DNA of 64,000 bases from Candidatus Curtissbacteria bacterium RIFCSPLOWO2_12_FULL_41_16 (GTDB lineage: Bacteria > Patescibacteriota > Microgenomatia > Curtissbacterales > GWA2-41-24): assembly GCA_001776545.1 (NCBI GenBank), contig MFBZ01000029.1:11988-75987 (forward strand), in the 5' to 3' direction. Both the position numbers and the translations under genes were made by a program. Below, in pieces: positions 47,310-57,483 of the stretch. Every line of letters starts with the position of its first letter. Positions within the stretch are counted from its first letter, which is position 1. Below the pieces are notes generated by a model. That model was not told where the DNA came from, searched no databases, and saw nothing but the letters and a program-made list of their open reading frames with translations.

Positions 47310-47575
47310 TTTGTTAATCGTGAATCGTTAATAGTTCATCGGGAAAATAAACCCCATGAACGATACACGATCAACGATCTTCATTACATTCTACGACGCT
47401 TTCAAACTAAAAATCAACAAGTAGGGAAGCCAGCCCCAAAATTGTACGACAACATAAGAAGCTTATAAGGTTGAGTCAACGCTAACCAAGCTAACGATCC
47501 CGTATCGTTAAGTCTAGTTACCGTTAAATATGGGGTCTTTACAAAAGACGATTGCCAGTTGTTATAATACCTCAC

Positions 47576-48559
47576 ATGTCACCGGTAGAAAGAAGTGTTG
47601 CAGTTGCACCCGAAACAGAACCTCATAGATTAATCGCTTTATTAGTCCCAGGGCAAGGAAAGCAAAGAGTTGGCATGGGGTGGGAATTATGGCAAAGATA
47701 TCCACCCGTCAAAGAACTTTTTTCTCTTGCGAGCGAAGTCACTGGACAAGACGTGGCAAGACTCTGTTTTGAAGGACCAGAAGGAGAATTAAATAAACCC
47801 GAGAACGCTCAAACTGCTATTCTCATTAATCACCAAGCCAATTTAATTGCTCTCCAAAAAGAGGGTAAGCTACATATAGAAGATATAAGTCTAGTCGCAG
47901 GCCATTCTTTAGGTGAATTAAGTGGTTTAGTTCCTGCAGGAGCTATTAGTGTTGAAGATCTTTTGATATTAGGCAGGGAAAGAGGCAAGGGTACACAAAT
48001 AGCTTATGAAAGACATCCAAGTAGAATGGTCGCTTTAAAGAATCCTTCAGAAGAGATTAGGAAACTGCTACAAACATTGGGTGTACAAGTGTGCATAACC
48101 AATACTGATAATCTGGTTACGTTTGGTGGACTTGAAAAAGCCATAGCAGAAGCAAAAAGATTACTTACCGAAAAAAAGATCCCCTTTGCAGAGGTAAATG
48201 TAGCAGGCGCATTCCATACTAAATGGATGAAACCAGCAGTAGAATACGTAGTTGAGGCCCTACGCAGAATTCATATACGTGACGCAAGAATTCCTCTAGT
48301 TGCAAACACAACCGGTAAACTTATCCAAACACGGGATCAAATCGAAAAGGAAATAATTGCCCAACTGACGGAACCAGTGCAGTGGGATAAAACTATCGCC
48401 CATTTAAAAGATCAACAGACGGATGAAACTATTGAAATTGGAGAAAATAATCATCTAAGTAAATGGAATACGGCAATGATAGGCGGCGGAATTACAGTTA
48501 TCACCATAGCTGGAATTACTTTAGCTTCAATTTGGCGCCGCCACCACCAAGCTCATTGA
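47576..48559 (+). CDS. FabD-like acyltransferase (malonyl-CoA:ACP transacylase family) with a C-terminal TM anchor
   Basis: LLVPGQGKQRVGMG (GQGSQ-type), the GHSLGE nucleophile elbow and a VQWD motif are present. The C-terminal IGGGITVITIAGITLASIW is hydrophobic. A TATAAT lies 6 nt upstream of the ATG. Confidence 0.65.
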   Translation: MSPVERSVAVAPETEPHRLIALLVPGQGKQRVGMGWELWQRYPPVKELFSLASEVTGQDVARLCFEGPEGELNKPENAQTAILINHQANLIALQKEGKLHIEDISLVAGHSLGELSGLVPAGAISVEDLLILGRERGKGTQIAYERHPSRMVALKNPSEEIRKLLQTLGVQVCITNTDNLVTFGGLEKAIAEAKRLLTEKKIPFAEVNVAGAFHTKWMKPAVEYVVEALRRIHIRDARIPLVANTTGKLIQTRDQIEKEIIAQLTEPVQWDKTIAHLKDQQTDETIEIGENNHLSKWNTAMIGGGITVITIAGITLASIWRRHHQAH

Positions 48560-51856: not shown

Positions 51857-52381
51857 TCAAATGCCTTTTGAATTCTTACCGATCTTTATAACATGGCATA
51901 TCGCCACCGCCAATGCATCGGCTGCATCGTCCAAATATCCGTTTAATGGTTTTTTTAACCTTCTTTTACCCAAATACTTCATTACCGATTTTTGAATTTG
52001 TTTTTTATCAGCCCGACCAGAACCGGTCAAGGTAAATTTTACGTGCAGTCCCTGATATTCAAATACTGGAAGCCTATAGGAAGCAGCCGTCGAGAGCACA
52101 ACCCCCCTGGCCTGCCCGACAGTCATTGCAGTTCTGGAATTTGCACCAAAGAACAATTGTTCAACAATAACACAATCAGGTCTAAACAGATTTAATAGTC
52201 TTTTTAAATCTTTTTGAATACTATATAACCTCAATGGCATCTCTTTATCTTTAGGGGTAACAATACATCCATAATCAATCAACTCAATACCATTTTTGAT
52301 CTTTGATTTTTGATTTTTGCTATGTTTTATTACCCCATAGCCTGTTGTCGCCGTACCCGGATCAATGCCGAAAATTATCAT
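51857..52381 (-). CDS. ruvC: Holliday junction resolvase RuvC
   Basis: MIIFGIDPGTATTGYGVI and the RNase H-like catalytic Asp/Glu pattern are present. Confidence 0.85.
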   Translation of the reverse strand: MIIFGIDPGTATTGYGVIKHSKNQKSKIKNGIELIDYGCIVTPKDKEMPLRLYSIQKDLKRLLNLFRPDCVIVEQLFFGANSRTAMTVGQARGVVLSTAASYRLPVFEYQGLHVKFTLTGSGRADKKQIQKSVMKYLGKRRLKKPLNGYLDDAADALAVAICHVIKIGKNSKGI

Positions 52382-52445: not shown

Positions 52446-52514
52446 GACATTTGAAATTTGACATTGGTAATTATTAAAAATTCCCGCAAAAATTTATTCG
52501 CAGAAAAGCTTTGC

Positions 52515-53261
52515 TTATTTTCGCGGGCGTGGTCCGTCATACTCCACATCTTTTTCAGAAAGTCTTCTAAAAGGTTTTTCCCTTAATGCTTCTTCAACAA
52601 CATGAGCAACCAGTCCCGGCGTTCTGGCAATAATAAATACTCCCTTTCCTACCTTCGGATTAAAACCCATCTCCAAGAGTAATGCCGCAATAATGCCGTC
52701 AATATTGATGGGCAATCTTTTGCCACCAAATAATAGTTTCCCCTCTACGGCTTCGGCAAATTTTACAAATTTGCCATAAAATCCAAGCTCCTTGGCAATC
52801 TGAACAAGCCTGATGGTTCTCAGATCAGTTTCGTAAAGTCTATGCCCGAATCCACTAACCCGCTGCCCACTTTTGGCAAAATCCTCGACTAATTTGTCCG
52901 CCCCATCCCCTGCCGGCGGACAATATCTCAAGAAATTTTCCATCGCTGCCTCAATTGCCCCGCCATGATACTCACCCAAAGCTAAAATTCCAGATGCGAC
53001 TGCCGCTTGCACTGGACTACCCCCGGAATAAACGTTTCTCGCAGCCACAACCGACGGCGGCTCTACTCCATGATCGATGGAGATAGTCAAAATTGCCTCC
53101 AGCATCTTCTCGCTGTTTTTATCCGGCATCTCGCCTTTCAAAATCAAGTAAATCGCGCGGGCAAAGGAGTTTGTTCCGGCAAGTTCTGCCAGATCATAAC
53201 CATAAACATAGGGCCTGCCGCCAACGTGGGTGGTAATTGCGCTGCGGTAAGGTTTAGGCAT
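52515..53261 (-). CDS. Citrate synthase-fold small protein (citryl-CoA lyase-like)
   Basis: It has the citrate synthase family catalytic motif GFGHRLY plus ARTPGLVAHV. At 248 aa it has only the C-terminal catalytic region, like Ccl and the AclA C-terminus. Confidence 0.55.
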   Translation of the reverse strand: MPKPYRSAITTHVGGRPYVYGYDLAELAGTNSFARAIYLILKGEMPDKNSEKMLEAILTISIDHGVEPPSVVAARNVYSGGSPVQAAVASGILALGEYHGGAIEAAMENFLRYCPPAGDGADKLVEDFAKSGQRVSGFGHRLYETDLRTIRLVQIAKELGFYGKFVKFAEAVEGKLLFGGKRLPINIDGIIAALLLEMGFNPKVGKGVFIIARTPGLVAHVVEEALREKPFRRLSEKDVEYDGPRPRK

Positions 53262-53336
53262 AAATTAAGTATAACTAAAAGGAGATAAAGTAGCAAAAAA
53301 GCAAAAGTACAACGATACAGAATTGTTAAGGTTCCT

Positions 53337-54227
53337 CTAGAGAACTTTTTTGATAAGTTTCGGGATGTCCTCAAAATTTTCGGCGACGATTGCGCCGGAA
53401 TTTTTCAAGATTTTGATCTTCTGCTCCATTGTTGCTTCCAGCCCAACAATCGCACCGGCATGCCCAAGTGCCGTATCGTGCGGCAGCTTTTCCGCAAATT
53501 TACCTGCTAAAAAGACAATAAAAGGCTTGGTGAATTTTCCCTCTTCGATTACCCTTGCAGCTTCTACTTCGGCGCTGCCCCCCACTTCCCCAAAAGCCAC
53601 CACCACTTTTGTCTGAGAATCTTTTTCAAATTCCAAAAGCAAATCAACAAAAGTTGTTCCAACAAGTAAATCGCCACCAATACCCACAACTGTTGACTGC
53701 CCAAATCCCCCATTGGTCACTAAAAGTCCAAGCTCCGAACACATCCCTCCGGACTTAGAAATAATCCCCACCGGCCCTTTGGAAAAAACAGCGTCAGGAG
53801 CAGGCCCTCCGACTGAACCAATCTTACCCTCGCCCGGGCTAATCGCCCCCACTGATGCCGGCCCCAAAACCCGTACGTTCTTTTGGGAAGCGTGCGCGAT
53901 AACGCGCGCCGTATCAAAAACCGGCATTTTCTCTACAAAAATATGCACTAGCGGAATTTGAACCTCAATTGCCTCGACTGCCGCCTCGTAAGATGCAAGC
54001 GGCGGTACGTAAATCATCGCAACGTCAACCGGTCCAGCTTCTCTGAGTGCTTCGCCGACCGAATTAAAAACCGGAACCGTATCCACCTCCTGACCTCCCT
54101 TACCCGGAGTCACACCACTAACCACACGAGTTCCGTAATCCAAAAGCTCAGAAGTAACCTGCATTCCCGACTTGCCGGTAATACCCTGAATCAATATTCT
54201 TGTTTCTCGATTTACTAAAATAGCCAT
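53337..54227 (-). CDS. Succinyl-CoA synthetase alpha-like (CoA-binding plus phosphohistidine loop GHAGAI); candidate citryl-CoA synthetase small subunit
   Basis: ILVNRETRILIQGITGKSG shows a CoA-binding Rossmann fold, and the His loop reads DTALGHAGAIV. Confidence 0.65.
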   Translation of the reverse strand: MAILVNRETRILIQGITGKSGMQVTSELLDYGTRVVSGVTPGKGGQEVDTVPVFNSVGEALREAGPVDVAMIYVPPLASYEAAVEAIEVQIPLVHIFVEKMPVFDTARVIAHASQKNVRVLGPASVGAISPGEGKIGSVGGPAPDAVFSKGPVGIISKSGGMCSELGLLVTNGGFGQSTVVGIGGDLLVGTTFVDLLLEFEKDSQTKVVVAFGEVGGSAEVEAARVIEEGKFTKPFIVFLAGKFAEKLPHDTALGHAGAIVGLEATMEQKIKILKNSGAIVAENFEDIPKLIKKVL

Positions 54228-54237
54228 GATATTAATT

Positions 54238-54262
54238 AAAAGTTCAAAATTAAAAGTTCAAA
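54238..54262. repeat. AT-rich tandem repeat (TTAAAAGTTCAAAA x2)
   Basis: Direct reading: ttaaaagttcaaaattaaaagttcaaaatta. Confidence 0.5.
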
Positions 54263-54263
54263 A

Positions 54264-55571
54264 TTATTTTTTTCCATTAACTTTAAACTTTGCACTTTGA
54301 ACCTTGAACTGATTAGATAGCTCAACCATCTTTTTGCATGCCACCGAAATTGGTGTTTCCGGCCCAAACAAATGGATATCATACTCTTCTTTTTTGGCAA
54401 CCCGCCTAAGCATCTCATACGCTTCTTTCTGTCTCGGTCCTCCCCGGCGAATCACAATTGGGTAATCCGGTTTTGGTTTTATTTGCCCAAGGCCTTGCAC
54501 AAAACCTGAAAGCGTTTCGTAAATATCAGTAAAGTTGGCGACCGCTCCCGCAACTAAACAACCTGACAAGCCTTTTCTTGAAAGTGTAACCTGCGTCAAT
54601 TTTTCGACTTTTTCCCTCGACGGGTTGCCGGAATATTCCGTGTAATTTGCCGGTCTGCCTCCAGAGGCTATCACCGCATCCATTACGAGAAGCGACGCCC
54701 CTCCGCCTGAAGCCAAAATGGCAATATCACCCGCTTCGCCACGAGGCGAGCCATCAAGTTCGATAAAAGTTGAACCCGCTGAGCCACGGTAATCTTCCTC
54801 GTCGATTTTTTTGGCCGCCAGTTCTCGCTGTGATGGAATCGCCGATATCGCTCCCTTTGACAAAACATCTAAATCTCGATGACGGGCCAGTCCAGCATCA
54901 TCAAGAATAATTTTGGCATCAACAGCTACGTAGTCAAACTCACCATTAACACTCCCACGTTTACTCTGAGCTCGTCGAAGGGCCAAAGGATTAACTTCTA
55001 TCAACCGGCAGTCATAACGCCAAAAAGCATCCCAAAGGCGCAAAATAAAATCGATAAGTCTATCTTCTTTAGGGGTCCGACCCCTATTAGGGGTTGAACC
55101 CCTAAATATCTTTTCCAAATCTTTTTTAATTGGCCCTGCCAAAGGGTCAAAATCAATTCTTATAATCGCCTCAGGATTAGCCTTTTTTACCTCCTCAATA
55201 TCAACTCCCCCTTTTTGAGAAAACAGCAAGAAGGGTATCTTCAGCGCAGTATCGTAAGTGATCGAAATATAATACTCGCTTTCGATATCAACCTTTTCGG
55301 CAAGTGCTATGAACCTTACCTGCTCTCCATTAAATTCTTTTCCTAAATGCTCTCTTGCAAAAGCAGTCAGCTGTTTTTCTGTCGTACAAACCTTTACTCC
55401 ACCACGTCTACCGCGATTTCCGGAAAGTACTTGGACTTTTGCAACGATTGGAAATTTAAGACGCTTGCGAGCCTGTTTCACCGCATCTAAATCCGAAGTC
55501 ATCACAAAAAAAGGGGTTTCTATCCCAACCTTTGAAAGAATCCGCAGACCTTCAAATTCGTATAGCTTCAT
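54264..55571 (-). CDS. Succinyl-CoA synthetase beta-like ATP-grasp subunit; candidate citryl-CoA synthetase large subunit
   Basis: It has an ATP-grasp N-domain (MKLYEFEGLRILSKVGI...VVKCQV-like VAKVQVLSGNRGRRGGVKV) and a ligase-CoA C-domain. It carries an in-frame palindromic insert at 55070-55107. Confidence 0.65.
   Translation of the reverse strand: MKLYEFEGLRILSKVGIETPFFVMTSDLDAVKQARKRLKFPIVAKVQVLSGNRGRRGGVKVCTTEKQLTAFAREHLGKEFNGEQVRFIALAEKVDIESEYYISITYDTALKIPFLLFSQKGGVDIEEVKKANPEAIIRIDFDPLAGPIKKDLEKIFRGSTPNRGRTPKEDRLIDFILRLWDAFWRYDCRLIEVNPLALRRAQSKRGSVNGEFDYVAVDAKIILDDAGLARHRDLDVLSKGAISAIPSQRELAAKKIDEEDYRGSAGSTFIELDGSPRGEAGDIAILASGGGASLLVMDAVIASGGRPANYTEYSGNPSREKVEKLTQVTLSRKGLSGCLVAGAVANFTDIYETLSGFVQGLGQIKPKPDYPIVIRRGGPRQKEAYEMLRRVAKKEEYDIHLFGPETPISVACKKMVELSNQFKVQSAKFKVNGKK
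55070..55107. repeat. GC-rich palindromic element pair (AGGGGTCCGACCCCT / AGGGGTTGAACCCCT) in-frame in the SucC-like gene
   Basis: On the minus strand it encodes RGSTPNRGRTPK. Confidence 0.6.
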
Positions 55572-55677
55572 CGATATTTTAAAATTCTAGCATAAAAGGC
55601 GCGTATAAAGTAGAATATTTTTATATCAGCAGGTCGCCAACTATTCATTATTTGAATAAAAAGGAGGTTTTGAAATT

Positions 55678-56106
55678 ATGGAAATAACCTTGGCCACCAA
55701 AGAAGACGTCGACGGCATTTTATACCTTCAAACCCAAATTTACCGGGTTTCCTCTCTACCTCAAAATTCTAGGAAGATCCTAGACAAACTAATCACGAAT
55801 CACGATTGCGATGTCTTAGTAGCAAAAAAAGATGATGAGATTGCCGGATCCGCATTTCTTTTTTACTTACCTATCCCGGCTCACGGCAAGCCCTGCGCTT
55901 TTCTGGAAGGAGTGGTGGTTGATGAAAAATTCAGAAAAAGAGGGATTGGCACCAAATTAACCCAAAAAGCAGTAGAACTTGCCAAAGAAAAAGGTGCCTA
56001 CAAAATCCTCTTTACTTCCGGATTTAATAGAAAAGATATCCACAAGTTTTACGAAAAACTTGGTTTTAAAAAATGGGGCTTTGAGTTTAGAATGGATTTG
56101 GAATAG
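55678..56106 (+). CDS. GNAT family N-acetyltransferase
   Basis: The acetyl-CoA binding motif reads VVVDEKFRKRGIGTKL. Confidence 0.7.
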   Translation: MEITLATKEDVDGILYLQTQIYRVSSLPQNSRKILDKLITNHDCDVLVAKKDDEIAGSAFLFYLPIPAHGKPCAFLEGVVVDEKFRKRGIGTKLTQKAVELAKEKGAYKILFTSGFNRKDIHKFYEKLGFKKWGFEFRMDLE

Positions 56107-56188: not shown

Positions 56189-56710
56189 TTATTGTCTAAT
56201 TGCCTTACTTTCCCAAATTGTCCCAAAAATTCTACTCTCACCCCATATCATACTTCTATTAAGCTCTGATAGCGCATTTTTTGAATATCGCAAAACCGCA
56301 CCTTCTATCTCATCCGGAGAAAAGAATGGCGCAATTCCCATTTTAACCGCGCAAAAATTTCTACTTTCAAAAAATTTGTTTGGATCGTCAAAACCTCCAT
56401 CAAATAACGCCAAGGAAATCTTATCCAGGTCAGTCTGTGGAGATGTTTCCGATATTAACTCGCAAATTCCCAGTTTAATTGCACTTGAAGCCTTCCGGTT
56501 GAGTTTCCTGGAAGAAACAATTTCCAAAATATTTCTTTCTTCTAAGGAAGATGGCAACATCCGCCACCAATTAAACATCCTTATGGAGCATTTTTCTCCT
56601 AGGACAAAAACTATCCCATGCCTTACGGAAAGCGAGGGCAAAATGGCAAACCCATCGCAAGAACCGATGCGAACTTCTATATCGCTACCATCATCTCTCT
56701 CCATTGTCAT
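56189..56710 (-). CDS. Hypothetical protein (downstream of yebC, same strand)
   Basis: It was chosen over the overlapping antisense ORF 56376..56879 because of its protein-like composition and operon position 20 nt after yebC. Confidence 0.35.
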   Translation of the reverse strand: MTMERDDGSDIEVRIGSCDGFAILPSLSVRHGIVFVLGEKCSIRMFNWWRMLPSSLEERNILEIVSSRKLNRKASSAIKLGICELISETSPQTDLDKISLALFDGGFDDPNKFFESRNFCAVKMGIAPFFSPDEIEGAVLRYSKNALSELNRSMIWGESRIFGTIWESKAIRQ

Positions 56711-56730: not shown

Positions 56731-57483
56731 TTACTTCCCGGCCAATATTTCGTCCGGAATGTCAAAATTTGAATAGACTTTCTGGACATCATCGAGTTCC
56801 TCCAGTTTCTCAATCAGCGACAAAACTTTTTTGGCAGTTTCGGGATCGGCAATCTCAACCGTTGTGGTCGGTTTTTTGACAAGCTCCACGCTTCCGGCCT
56901 TAAGTCCCTTCTCCAAAAGCGCTCTTCTGACAGTTTCTATCTCAGTCGGTTTGGTATAAACCTCGACCAAGTCGCCGGCTTCCTCGACATCCTCGGCCCC
57001 CGCCTCCGCCGCCATTTCAAAAATTTCATCTACCGACTTACCGTCCCTGGGAACAGTAATTAAGCCCTGGTCTTTAAACATCCAAGAGACGGCACCCAAA
57101 GACGCAAAAGTTCCCCCGGATTTTTCAATTACTCCCCTTATTTCGGAAAGTGCCCGATTGCGGTTGTCAGTTGTTGCCTCAACTATTAAACCGACTTTTC
57201 CTGGACCGTACCCTTCGTAGGCGACTGATTCCAGCTGTCCCCCGCCCCCTCCTTTTCCCAGGCCCCTGTCAATCGCCCGCTGGATGTTTTCCTTCGGCAT
57301 GTTTACCGCCCGGGCCTGGTCAATTGCCAGTCTCAGTTTGAAATTGCTGACCGGGTCCCCTCCACCGCCTTCACGAACGGCAATGGTGATCGCGTTTCCT
57401 AACTTAGTAAAAGCCTGTCCGCGTTTTACGTCTGCCACACCCTTTTGCCTCTTAATCTGCGACCACTTGCTATGTCCCGACAT
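56731..57483 (-). CDS. YebC/PmpR family DNA-binding regulator
   Basis: MSGHSKWSQIKRQKGVADVKRGQAFTKL is the conserved YebC N-terminus. Confidence 0.85.
   Translation of the reverse strand: MSGHSKWSQIKRQKGVADVKRGQAFTKLGNAITIAVREGGGGDPVSNFKLRLAIDQARAVNMPKENIQRAIDRGLGKGGGGGQLESVAYEGYGPGKVGLIVEATTDNRNRALSEIRGVIEKSGGTFASLGAVSWMFKDQGLITVPRDGKSVDEIFEMAAEAGAEDVEEAGDLVEVYTKPTEIETVRRALLEKGLKAGSVELVKKPTTTVEIADPETAKKVLSLIEKLEELDDVQKVYSNFDIPDEILAGK

What the first reader, a model, noticed from the sequence alone, without database searches (positions are those of the whole stretch)
52515..55571. Three-gene cluster SucC-like + SucD-like + small citrate-synthase-fold protein: candidate citryl-CoA synthetase/citryl-CoA lyase (two-step citrate cleavage) module
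The minus-strand operon encodes an ATP-grasp SucC-like subunit (435 aa), a SucD-like subunit with the phosphohistidine loop GHAGAI (296 aa), and a 248-aa protein with the citrate synthase catalytic motif GFGHRLY that has only the C-terminal catalytic region. This trio matches the size and domain pattern of CcsA/CcsB plus Ccl (Hydrogenobacter-type citrate cleavage) or a split ATP-citrate lyase. It does not look like a plain succinyl-CoA synthetase, which has no reason to be co-operonic with a truncated citrate synthase homologue. If confirmed, it is an unexpected central-carbon capability for a reduced genome. The direction (citrate cleavage or citryl-CoA formation) is open.
Basis: partly seen in the sequence, partly recalled or inferred. 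Interest (0 to 1): 0.6.

Follow-up and report, generated by a model that had tools for sequence, protein, structure and literature searches.

The report
Citrate-cleaving CCS/CCL cassette in CPR bacterium

Summary
The 435-aa protein joins an ATP-grasp domain to an ACL-type citrate-binding domain. It keeps the citrate-loop residues and falls in a CcsA/AclB clade that excludes SucC in 198/200 bootstraps. The 248-aa protein is full-length against Hydrogenobacter citryl-CoA lyase (49.6% identity), passes NCBIfam's citryl-CoA lyase cut-off, and keeps the His/His/Asp triad. The 296-aa alpha subunit keeps the phosphohistidine but cannot be separated from SucD.

The window belongs to a Candidatus Curtissbacteria genome (GCA_001775075.1). 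The cassette (large subunit, alpha, Ccl; always unfused) is present in all 76 of the 80 best loci whose contigs extend far enough; 409 GTDB species genomes encode a relative. Most are Microgenomates-group CPR bacteria and DPANN archaea.

Acetyl-CoA-using acetyltransferase genes, GlmU-like or GNAT, recur directly upstream. This favours the cleavage direction and an acetyl-CoA supply role, but that is inference.

NCBI already names the homologues citryl-CoA lyase. A 2022 preprint and a 2026 paper report CCS/CCL or ACL in CPR and DPANN. No enzyme of this clade has been assayed. Verdict: new member of a known kind, moderate interest.

The parts
54264..55571 (-). Citryl-CoA synthetase large (beta, CcsA/AclB-like) subunit, 435 aa: ATP-grasp domain plus ACL-type citrate-binding domain
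   Evidence: Pfam ATP-grasp_2 (142 bits) and Citrate_bind PF16114 (92 bits, cut-off 26.8). Best PDB hit is CcsA 6hxq_B at 189 bits. Citrate-loop residues G315, N346-F347-T348 and R376 correspond to human ACLY G309, N346-F347-T348 and R379 and are at least 97% conserved in 81 cassette copies. The CcsA/AclB clade excludes SucC in 198/200 bootstraps.
53337..54227 (-). Alpha (CoA-binding, phosphohistidine) subunit, 296 aa, SucD/CcsB family
   Evidence: Pfam CoA_binding + Ligase_CoA. GHAGA with H256 and E214 are at least 97% conserved in 77 copies. It scores 277 bits against the NCBIfam SucD equivalog, below the cut-off of 336. It is adjacent to the citrate-type large subunit in 79 of 80 loci.
52515..53261 (-). 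Citryl-CoA lyase (Ccl), 248 aa, citrate-synthase fold without the N-terminal part of citrate synthase
   Evidence: NCBIfam NF004869 citryl-CoA lyase, 277 bits against cut-off 212. PDB 6hxp_A Ccl: 234 bits, residues 3-247 aligned to 3-250, 49.6% identity. H99, H140, D188, R148 and R213 are at least 97% conserved in 75 copies.
52481..52506 (-). Terminator-like hairpin plus T-run directly after the Ccl stop codon
   Evidence: Consensus scan and sequence. This is a pattern match only.
55647..55674 (-). Promoter-like hexamers upstream of the large-subunit start
   Evidence: Consensus scan. This is a pattern match only (16 sites found in the region against 9.4 expected).
55678..56106 (+). Divergently transcribed GNAT acetyltransferase (142 aa), a possible functional partner that consumes acetyl-CoA
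   Evidence: Pfam Acetyltransf_1. It occupies the same divergent position in 15 of 25 Curtissbacteria-like loci and in L001-L006. Its substrate is unknown; GNA1-type GlcN-6-P acetyltransferases are among weak PDB hits.

Best explanation
The three genes form one operon encoding a two-enzyme, ATP-dependent citrate-cleavage system of the CCS/CCL type. In step 1, the heteromeric synthetase (435-aa large subunit plus 296-aa alpha subunit) uses ATP to phosphorylate the alpha-subunit histidine H256. It then activates citrate, bound in the large subunit's C-terminal domain, and forms citryl-CoA. In step 2, the 248-aa lyase cleaves citryl-CoA into acetyl-CoA and oxaloacetate using the citrate-synthase-type His/His/Asp triad. 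The host is a Curtissbacteria (CPR) bacterium that probably has no TCA cycle, so the citrate would come from outside the cell (a host or the community). The main purpose would be to supply acetyl-CoA, for example to the acetyltransferases encoded next to the cassette, with oxaloacetate as a C4 by-product. What is shown: family membership, conservation of catalytic and ligand residues, and conservation of the gene order. What is inferred: the substrate, the direction, the source of citrate and the physiological use of the products.
For: The closest solved structures are CcsA and Ccl of Hydrogenobacter thermophilus. The citrate-loop residues match human ACLY G309/N346/T348/R379, whereas SucC has GGI(T/V)R and VR(V/L)xG at those positions. 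The tree places the large subunit with CcsA and AclB and away from SucC in 198/200 bootstraps. Catalytic residues of all three proteins are at least 97% conserved over 75-81 cassette copies. The same unfused gene order occurs in 76 of 80 loci from CPR bacteria and DPANN archaea. For direction: a GlmU-like sugar-1-phosphate nucleotidyltransferase/acetyltransferase lies upstream on the same strand in 25 of 68 loci, it comes in at least three gene types, and 7 of 14 large-subunit clusters show it. A GNAT sits divergently upstream in 15 of 25 Curtissbacteria-like loci and in the window. In L053 the order is Mur ligase, nucleotidyltransferase, acetyltransferase, then the cassette. No other TCA-cycle gene occurs in about 86 kb of the 96-kb source contig, i.e. 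the window plus the fetched flanks. A complete Microgenomates genome has no TCA-cycle genes (PMC7143001).
Against: No enzyme of this CPR/DPANN clade has been assayed. The alpha subunit is closer to archaeal SucD than to CcsB among solved structures, and its phylogeny is unresolved. The overall reaction is near equilibrium, so sequence alone cannot fix the direction. No citrate transporter was found in the window or the contig flanks. The rest of the genome could not be searched, so the absence of a TCA cycle and of other acetyl-CoA sources in this organism is assumed from the literature on related genomes. Some Microgenomates have pyruvate:ferredoxin oxidoreductase as an acetyl-CoA source. The acetyltransferase linkage is a genomic association and not proof of metabolic coupling.
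Confidence: 0.7

Rival explanations
1. The enzymes are the same but run in reverse. Ccl condenses acetyl-CoA with oxaloacetate to citryl-CoA, and the synthetase then releases citrate while making ATP by substrate-level phosphorylation. This would be an ATP-yielding citrate synthase for a fermenter.
For: The ACL reaction is close to equilibrium, and Desulfobacter postgatei is reported to use ATP-citrate lyase in this direction (own knowledge; Moeller et al. 1987, not checked here). CPR bacteria depend on substrate-level phosphorylation. Ccl retains the full citrate-synthase catalytic triad.
Against: This route needs a steady oxaloacetate supply and a use or export path for citrate, and neither is evident. 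Acetyl-CoA can already yield ATP through acetyl-CoA synthetase or acetate formation in related genomes without spending a C4 acid. The recurrent operon linkage to enzymes that consume acetyl-CoA fits acetyl-CoA production better.
Confidence: 0.12
2. The three proteins assemble into a non-covalent, ACL-like holoenzyme (a fully split ATP-citrate lyase) that channels citryl-CoA, instead of acting as two independent enzymes as in Hydrogenobacter. This overlaps with the best explanation and differs only in quaternary structure.
For: In the NJ tree the large subunit lies nearer Chlorobium AclB than Hydrogenobacter CcsA in 140/200 bootstraps. Its ANFT and RRGGP motifs are identical to AclB, whereas CcsA has ANNT and RRNGP. 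Its C-terminal domain scores higher against AclB (65.8 bits) than against CcsA (54.3 bits). The three genes are strictly co-located in 76 of 80 loci.
Against: Alpha and Ccl are never fused in the 76 complete loci. Unrelated genes are sometimes inserted between cassette genes. Ccl scores 234 bits against free-standing Ccl but only 56 bits against the AclA citrate-synthase-homology module. AclB sits on a long branch, so its placement is not robust.
Confidence: 0.2
3. The synthetase/lyase pair acts on a different hydroxy- or tricarboxylic acid, such as malate, citramalate or 2-methylcitrate, and not on citrate.
For: There are no biochemical data for this clade. The alpha subunit is generic. The clade is only 35-38% identical to the characterised large subunits.
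Against: All residues equivalent to the ACLY citrate-site residues are at least 97% conserved across the clade. The Pfam Citrate_bind domain is well above threshold. Ccl keeps the oxaloacetate/citrate-binding arginines of citrate synthases, R148 and R213 (residue roles from own knowledge of pig citrate synthase R329 and R401).
Confidence: 0.06
4. This is a plain succinyl-CoA synthetase next to a degraded, truncated citrate synthase gene, with no citrate-cleaving function.
For: The alpha subunit's best solved-structure hits are SucD. The only NCBIfam hits for the large subunit are SucC-type models.
Against: The large subunit scores about half the SucC cut-off (188 bits against 370) and groups away from SucC in 198/200 bootstraps. 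The 248-aa protein is full-length relative to Ccl and is conserved at 72-87% identity in 120 listed homologues. Its catalytic residues are conserved across two domains of life.
Confidence: 0.02

Closest known systems
Citryl-CoA synthetase (CcsA/CcsB) plus citryl-CoA lyase (Ccl) of Hydrogenobacter thermophilus (PDB 6hxq, 6hxp)
   Same: The architecture is the same: three separate polypeptides. The large subunit combines ATP-grasp and citrate-binding domains, the alpha subunit carries the phosphohistidine, and the lyase is a small citrate-synthase-fold protein. These are the best solved-structure hits for the large subunit (189 bits, 37.5% identity) and for Ccl (234 bits, 49.6% identity).
   Different: The window's large subunit belongs to a separate, much larger 'ANFT' clade of about 55 clusters at 50% identity. 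The Aquificae-type 'ANNT' clade has only about 5 such clusters. The alpha subunit is 296 aa and SucD-like, whereas CcsB is 353 aa. The host is a non-autotrophic CPR bacterium without a reductive TCA cycle, so the physiological role must differ.
Two-subunit bacterial ATP-citrate lyase (AclB/AclA) of Chlorobium limicola (PDB 6hxj)
   Same: The overall chemistry is the same. The large subunit shares the ANFT and RRGGP citrate-site motifs exactly and may be phylogenetically nearer AclB than CcsA (140/200 bootstraps).
   Different: In ACL the alpha subunit is fused to the lyase (citrate-synthase-homology) module. Here they are separate genes in all 76 complete loci. Ccl scores only 56 bits against the AclA lyase module.
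Succinyl-CoA synthetase (SucC/SucD)
   Same: It belongs to the same superfamily and uses the same phosphohistidine mechanism. The alpha subunit is 45% identical to archaeal and Thermus SucD and cannot be separated from them by phylogeny.
   Different: The large subunit has the citrate-binding domain and its motifs in place of the SucC GGI(T/V)RC and VRLxGTN motifs, and it falls far below the SucC family cut-offs.
Citrate synthase / 2-methylcitrate synthase
   Same: The fold and the catalytic His/His/Asp triad are shared, including the GFGHRxY motif.
   Different: The window protein lacks roughly the first 160 positions of the citrate synthase model. It scores 82 bits or less against any citrate synthase, compared with 234 bits against Ccl.
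Eukaryotic cytosolic ATP-citrate lyase (ACLY)
   Same: The proposed role is the same: converting imported citrate into acetyl-CoA for biosynthetic acetylation or acylation outside a TCA-cycle context. The citrate-site residues are conserved.
   Different: ACLY is a single fused polypeptide of about 1100 aa, whereas this system has three separate proteins. The functional analogy is inferred and not demonstrated.

Membership tests
Citryl-CoA synthetase large subunit / ACL beta subunit (citrate-type ATP-grasp subunit) | ATP-grasp domain followed by an ACL-type citrate-binding domain | tested here: met
   Pfam ATP-grasp_2 at 142 bits and Citrate_bind at 92 bits (cut-off 26.8).
Citryl-CoA synthetase large subunit / ACL beta subunit (citrate-type ATP-grasp subunit) | Citrate-site residues equivalent to human ACLY G309, N346, T348 and R379 | tested here: met
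   G315, N346, T348 and R376 align to those positions of 3mwd_A and are at least 97% conserved in 81 copies. The assignment of these residues to citrate binding rests on my memory of Sun et al. 2010, which the library does not hold.
Citryl-CoA synthetase large subunit / ACL beta subunit (citrate-type ATP-grasp subunit) | Phylogenetic placement with CcsA/AclB and outside SucC | tested here: met
   NJ tree of 128 sequences: the citrate-type clade excludes all SucC-type sequences in 198/200 bootstraps.
Citryl-CoA synthetase small subunit (CcsB) | Alpha subunit with CoA-binding and ligase-CoA domains and a phosphohistidine loop (GHAGA) | tested here: met
   (H256 conserved).
Citryl-CoA synthetase small subunit (CcsB) | Specific relatedness to CcsB rather than SucD | tested here: inconclusive
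   SucD scores 251 bits against 177 for CcsB. In the tree, both the SucD and the CcsB-type references nest within the cassette alphas.
Citryl-CoA lyase (Ccl) | Full-length match to the Ccl family above the curated threshold, and better than to citrate synthases | tested here: met
   NF004869 at 277 bits against cut-off 212. 6hxp_A at 234 bits, against 82 or less for citrate synthases and 56 for the AclA module.
Citryl-CoA lyase (Ccl) | Citrate-synthase-type catalytic His, His and Asp, plus the substrate-binding arginines | tested here: met
   H99, H140, D188, R148 and R213 are at least 97% conserved in 75 copies. Equivalence to pig citrate synthase H274/H320/D375 and R329/R401 is from own knowledge plus the alignment.
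CCS/CCL two-step citrate cleavage system | Citrate-, ATP- and CoA-dependent citryl-CoA formation, and citryl-CoA cleavage to acetyl-CoA and oxaloacetate | not testable with these tools
   This needs enzyme assays.
ATP-citrate lyase (AclBA / ACLY) | Alpha subunit fused to the citrate-synthase-homology (lyase) module | tested here: not met
   Alpha and Ccl are separate ORFs in the window, 75 bp apart, and in all 76 complete loci.
Succinyl-CoA synthetase | Beta subunit reaching the SucC family thresholds and carrying SucC-type substrate-site motifs | tested here: not met
   188.5 bits against 370 and 175.9 against 375.55. The motifs differ.
Reductive TCA cycle (as the context for CCS/CCL) | Co-occurrence with 2-oxoglutarate:ferredoxin oxidoreductase, fumarate reductase, aconitase and related enzymes | tested here: inconclusive
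   None of these occurs in the roughly 86 kb of the 96-kb contig examined. The whole genome could not be searched. Related Microgenomates lack the cycle.

The most novel reading that the evidence does not exclude
The CPR/DPANN 'ANFT-clade' cassette may be a prokaryotic analogue of cytosolic ACLY. Ultra-small symbionts without a TCA cycle would take citrate from hosts or neighbours and cleave it mainly to feed acetyl-CoA to cell-envelope amino-sugar acetylation (UDP-GlcNAc synthesis through GlmU-like or GNAT acetyltransferases). The cassette's repeated operon fusion with these acetyltransferases and its proximity to Mur/dcw genes would then follow. That would make citrate a key cross-fed currency for episymbiont growth.
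Probability: 0.3. Interest if true: 0.55.

Novelty: new member of a known kind. Interest (0 to 1): 0.35.

Why it matters
CPR bacteria and DPANN archaea make up a large share of microbial diversity, yet how they obtain central precursors is poorly understood. A conserved, apparently functional citrate-cleavage cassette present in hundreds of such genomes would give them a one-step route from a scavenged metabolite to acetyl-CoA and oxaloacetate. It is also a concrete target for cultivation (citrate supplementation) and for testing cross-feeding models. In addition, it samples a large uncharacterised clade lying between the characterised Aquificae CCS/CCL and the fused ACLs. That bears on the proposed evolutionary path from CCS/CCL to ACL and citrate synthase. 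The basic annotation is not new.

Tried and rejected
1. Plain SCS plus a truncated citrate synthase: rejected.
2. Alpha-subunit phylogeny to separate CcsB from SucD: it did not resolve.
3. Primary-literature confirmation of the ACLY citrate-site residues: Sun et al. 2010 is not in the library, and the searches gave only indirect mentions. The residue roles are therefore marked as own knowledge.
4. Taxonomic labelling of representative clusters through cluster membership: few names were returned, so I used the genome scan instead.
5. A consistent fourth subunit among the genes inserted between cassette genes: the inserts are heterogeneous (Trp-repressor-like HTH protein, 23S rRNA intervening-sequence protein, thioredoxin/DsbD, DUF2268, reverse transcriptase), so this is rejected.
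6. A citrate transporter or other TCA-cycle genes in the window and contig flanks: none found.
7. A GlmU-type acetyltransferase elsewhere in the window: no tblastn hit.
8. The GNAT as a GNA1-type GlcN-6-P acetyltransferase: only weak, non-specific PDB similarity.
9. tRNA and Rfam scans of the window: nothing found.
10. Structure prediction was not run. Full-length sequence matches to solved CcsA and Ccl structures made it redundant.
Full report
OBSERVATION

The quoted motifs are present: GHAGAI at residues 255-260 of the second protein and GFGHRLY at 137-143 of the third. The genes are separated by 36 and 75 bp. A hairpin with a T-run follows the last gene, and promoter-like hexamers precede the first. 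This fits a single three-gene transcription unit, although those signals are consensus matches only.

WHAT THE PROTEINS ARE

The large subunit has an ATP-grasp_2 domain and the ACL citrate-binding domain PF16114 (92 bits, cut-off 26.8). It reaches only about half the NCBIfam SucC thresholds (188 bits against 370). Among solved structures it matches Hydrogenobacter thermophilus CcsA best (6hxq_B, 189 bits, 37.5% identity). Chlorobium AclB follows at 147 bits and the best SucC at 120 bits.

I counted along the alignment to human ACLY chain 3mwd_A. The window protein retains the YSG glycine (G309), the A-N-F-T loop (N346/F347/T348) and the RRGGP arginine (R379). SucC proteins have GGI(T/V)R and VR(V/L)xG at these positions. 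That these residues bind citrate is my recollection of Sun et al. 2010 (J Biol Chem 285:27418). The paper is not in the library, so this point rests on my own knowledge plus the Pfam domain call.

An exhaustive search of 1.84 billion cluster representatives gave 4445 relatives. About the 60 best-scoring clusters all carry the EYSGNP / ANFT / RR(G/A)GP motifs. I built a neighbour-joining tree of 128 sequences, including reference sequences taken from the PDB alignments. The clade containing the window protein, CcsA and AclB excludes every SucC-type sequence in 198/200 bootstraps.

Within that clade the window protein sits in a large 'ANFT' group of about 55 clusters at 50% identity. The characterised Aquificae CcsA belongs to a small separate 'ANNT' group. 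Chlorobium AclB branches from the ANFT group on a long branch, and the window protein is nearer AclB than CcsA in 140/200 replicates. That placement is not robust.

The 248-aa protein aligns over its full length (3-247 against 3-250) to H. thermophilus citryl-CoA lyase 6hxp_A: 234 bits and 49.6% identity. It scores 82 bits or less against any citrate synthase and 56 bits against the lyase module of AclA. It passes the NCBIfam citryl-CoA lyase model NF004869 (277 bits, cut-off 212). It is therefore a complete Ccl and not a truncated citrate synthase.

The 296-aa alpha subunit has the CoA-binding and ligase-CoA domains and the phosphohistidine loop. It is closer to archaeal and Thermus SucD (251-214 bits, 45% identity) than to CcsB (177 bits), and it falls below the SucD equivalog cut-off (277 bits against 336). 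I built a tree with SucD references, a CcsB-type alpha fetched from beside an Aquificae-type large subunit (L090) and a partial AclA (L093). It does not separate these groups. The alpha subunit is uninformative about substrate.

ORGANISM AND DISTRIBUTION

The window is part of contig MFBX01000034.1 of NCBI assembly GCA_001775075.1, from a groundwater metagenome. The closest Ccl homologues (72-87% identity) are from Candidatus Curtissbacteria, and NCBI already names them 'citryl-CoA lyase'.

The rest of the window encodes typical CPR housekeeping functions. These include aminoacyl-tRNA synthetases, PBP1, RecG, RNase III, TrmD, type IV pilus genes, gyrase, CarAB, FabD, PyrH, XerC-like recombinase, RuvC, YebC and a Na+/H+ exchanger. 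There is no other TCA-cycle enzyme and no obvious citrate carrier. The fetched contig flanks, 9.5 kb and about 8 kb beyond the window edges, add nothing more.

I scanned one genome per GTDB species using two peptide patterns specific to the ANFT clade. This found 409 genomes encoding a relative. The best 80 are dominated by Microgenomates-group CPR lineages: Curtiss-, Woyke-, Woese- and Daviesbacteria, plus 'Patescibacteria group'. DPANN archaea are also well represented: Iainarchaeum, Woesearchaeota, Micrarchaeota and unclassified archaea. There is also one Heimdallarchaeota and one Acidobacteriota genome.

In 76 of these 80 loci, all three genes occur in the order large subunit, alpha, Ccl, on one strand and as separate ORFs. 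The four exceptions are contig ends. Across 75-81 copies the following residues are at least 97% conserved:
- Ccl: H99, H140, D188, R148, R213.
- Alpha subunit: H256, E214.
- Large subunit: K45, R53, N194, D218, G315, N346, F347, T348, R375, R376.

The cassette is therefore under strong purifying selection in two domains of life.

CONTEXT AND LIKELY DIRECTION

In Curtissbacteria the cassette sits between YebC and RuvC with conserved synteny. Other lineages have it elsewhere, so the cassette has moved as a unit. The only gene family besides the three cassette genes that recurs across lineages is a GlmU-like sugar-1-phosphate nucleotidyltransferase/acetyltransferase. Its best NCBIfam match is TIGR03992 at 250-262 bits, below the cut-off of 292.

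This gene lies upstream on the same strand within 1.6 kb in 25 of the 68 loci with enough upstream DNA. In 13 of them it abuts or overlaps the large-subunit start codon. The linkage occurs in 7 of 14 large-subunit clusters at 60% identity. It involves at least three gene types:
- a stand-alone acetyltransferase domain of the bacterial GlmU type;
- a stand-alone acetyltransferase domain of the archaeal GlmU type;
- a full-length bifunctional enzyme.

Some archaeal loci have only the nucleotidyltransferase half.

In L053 the order is Mur ligase, nucleotidyltransferase, acetyltransferase, then the cassette. In Woykebacteria-type loci the acetyltransferase-plus-cassette unit diverges from MraZ-RsmH at the head of the cell-wall/division cluster. 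In the window and in 15 of 25 Curtissbacteria-like loci, a GNAT acetyltransferase is divergently transcribed from the same intergenic region instead. Its substrate is unknown. GlcN-6-P acetyltransferases (GNA1) are among its weak PDB hits but do not stand out.

Two unrelated acetyl-CoA-dependent acetyltransferase folds therefore recur at this position. I take this as indirect evidence that the cassette runs towards acetyl-CoA. This is inference, and shared ancestry of the gene neighbourhoods inflates the raw counts.

MECHANISM PROPOSED

ATP phosphorylates H256 of the alpha subunit. Citrate bound in the large subunit's C-terminal domain is activated and thioesterified with CoA to citryl-CoA. 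Ccl then cleaves citryl-CoA to acetyl-CoA and oxaloacetate. A complete Microgenomates genome has no TCA-cycle genes (PMC7143001), and other CPR genomes have only partial cycles (PMC5581439). Citrate is therefore most likely imported.

The rivals are as follows:
- The reverse, ATP-yielding direction. There is a precedent in Desulfobacter postgatei (own knowledge). It would need an oxaloacetate supply and offers no advantage over acetate formation.
- A non-covalent ACL-like complex. This is compatible with the main explanation.
- A different acid substrate. This is disfavoured by the conserved citrate-site residues.
- Plain SCS plus a degraded citrate synthase. This is refuted.

WHAT IS ALREADY KNOWN

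Sokolskyi and DasSarma (bioRxiv 10.1101/2022.10.25.513756) report that sequences from CPR bacteria and DPANN archaea annotated as SCS or citrate synthase are monophyletic with CCS and CCL. They speculate about syntrophic TCA operation between Nanohaloarchaea and Haloarchaea.

A 2026 deep-groundwater study (PMC13014828) lists Patescibacteria, Micrarchaeota, Nanoarchaeota and others as carrying 'ACL'. It proposes that they take up citrate released by other community members. I found no biochemical work on this clade. I also found no paper on Curtissbacteria and citrate, and no description of the acetyltransferase linkage in the papers read.

VERDICT

The cassette is a new, uncharacterised member of a known kind (CCS/CCL), and its presence is already recognised in annotation and in two papers. 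Three points go beyond those papers. The cassette is strictly unfused and conserved in order across CPR and DPANN. The clade is distinct from the characterised Aquificae enzymes, and its large subunit is ACL-like in its citrate site. The cassette is recurrently linked to acetyl-CoA-consuming amino-sugar acetyltransferase genes. Interest is moderate.

Noticed in passing
L033, L034, L045, L046, L053, L062, L067, L074, L079, L080 and others, directly upstream of locus position ~6001: A GlmU-like nucleotidyltransferase/hexapeptide acetyltransferase gene, or just one of its halves, lies on the same strand immediately upstream of the cassette in 25 of 68 loci. At least three different gene types are involved.
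   Followed up: yes
window 55678-56106 (+): A 142-aa GNAT acetyltransferase is transcribed divergently from the cassette promoter region. The same position is occupied in 15 of 25 Curtissbacteria-like loci. GNA1-type GlcN-6-P acetyltransferases are among its weak PDB hits, but the substrate is unknown.
   Followed up: partly
window 51857-52381 (RuvC) and 56731-57483 (YebC): In Curtissbacteria the cassette, the GNAT and an unannotated ORF lie between yebC and ruvC, genes that are neighbours in many bacteria (own knowledge). Other CPR lineages carry the cassette elsewhere, near GlmU or dcw genes. This suggests the cassette moved as a unit.
   Followed up: partly
window 56189-56710 (-): A 173-aa ORF between YebC and the GNAT has no Pfam match. 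An ORF of similar size (167-171 aa) occupies the same position in related contigs L001-L003 and L006.
   Followed up: no
L008, L009, L016, L043, L065, L067, L069, L081, L086, between cassette genes: In some genomes, unrelated genes are inserted between cassette genes: a Trp-repressor-like HTH protein, a 23S rRNA intervening-sequence protein, thioredoxin/DsbD, DUF2268, and a reverse transcriptase in L086 (3946-4866).
   Followed up: partly
L037 (DASVHF010000076.1, labelled Candidatus Nanoarchaeia): This 6.3-kb contig has ORFs of the same size, order and orientation as the MraZ/RsmH-acetyltransferase-cassette arrangement in the Woykebacteria loci (only L033's were checked against Pfam). It is probably a CPR contig binned into an archaeal MAG.
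   Followed up: partly
record titles (for example OZ246414.1 at 915 kb and CAZXEC010000001.1): Many cassette-bearing MAGs are titled 'uncultured Gammaproteobacteria' or 'uncultured Methanosarcinales', yet their gene content and synteny look like CPR or DPANN. The names appear to be placeholders, so taxon counts taken from titles are unreliable.
   Followed up: no
Representative proteins P0184-P0270: Several other uncharacterised SucC-like groups appear with neither SucC nor citrate-type motifs, for example 'DTSGNP...ASQEQ...AGNK' and 'EIGGNP...NVVNNTRA...FR(V/I)PG(S/A)W'. They may have other acid specificities.
   Followed up: no
L045 3113-4480, L082 1234-2607 and 7 other loci: An Nramp-family divalent-metal transporter gene lies near the cassette in 9 non-Curtissbacteria loci, mostly Daviesbacteria-like. 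This could be lineage synteny, or it could relate to metal-citrate uptake.
   Followed up: no
window 54228-54263: The spacer between the large-subunit and alpha-subunit genes contains a tandem direct repeat, TTTTGAACTTTTAAT twice.
   Followed up: no
window 47552-48559 (+): A FabD-like malonyl-CoA:ACP transacylase (Acyl_transf_1) is encoded in this CPR genome. Most CPR are thought to lack fatty-acid synthesis, so an acetyl-CoA sink in lipid metabolism might be worth checking.
   Followed up: no
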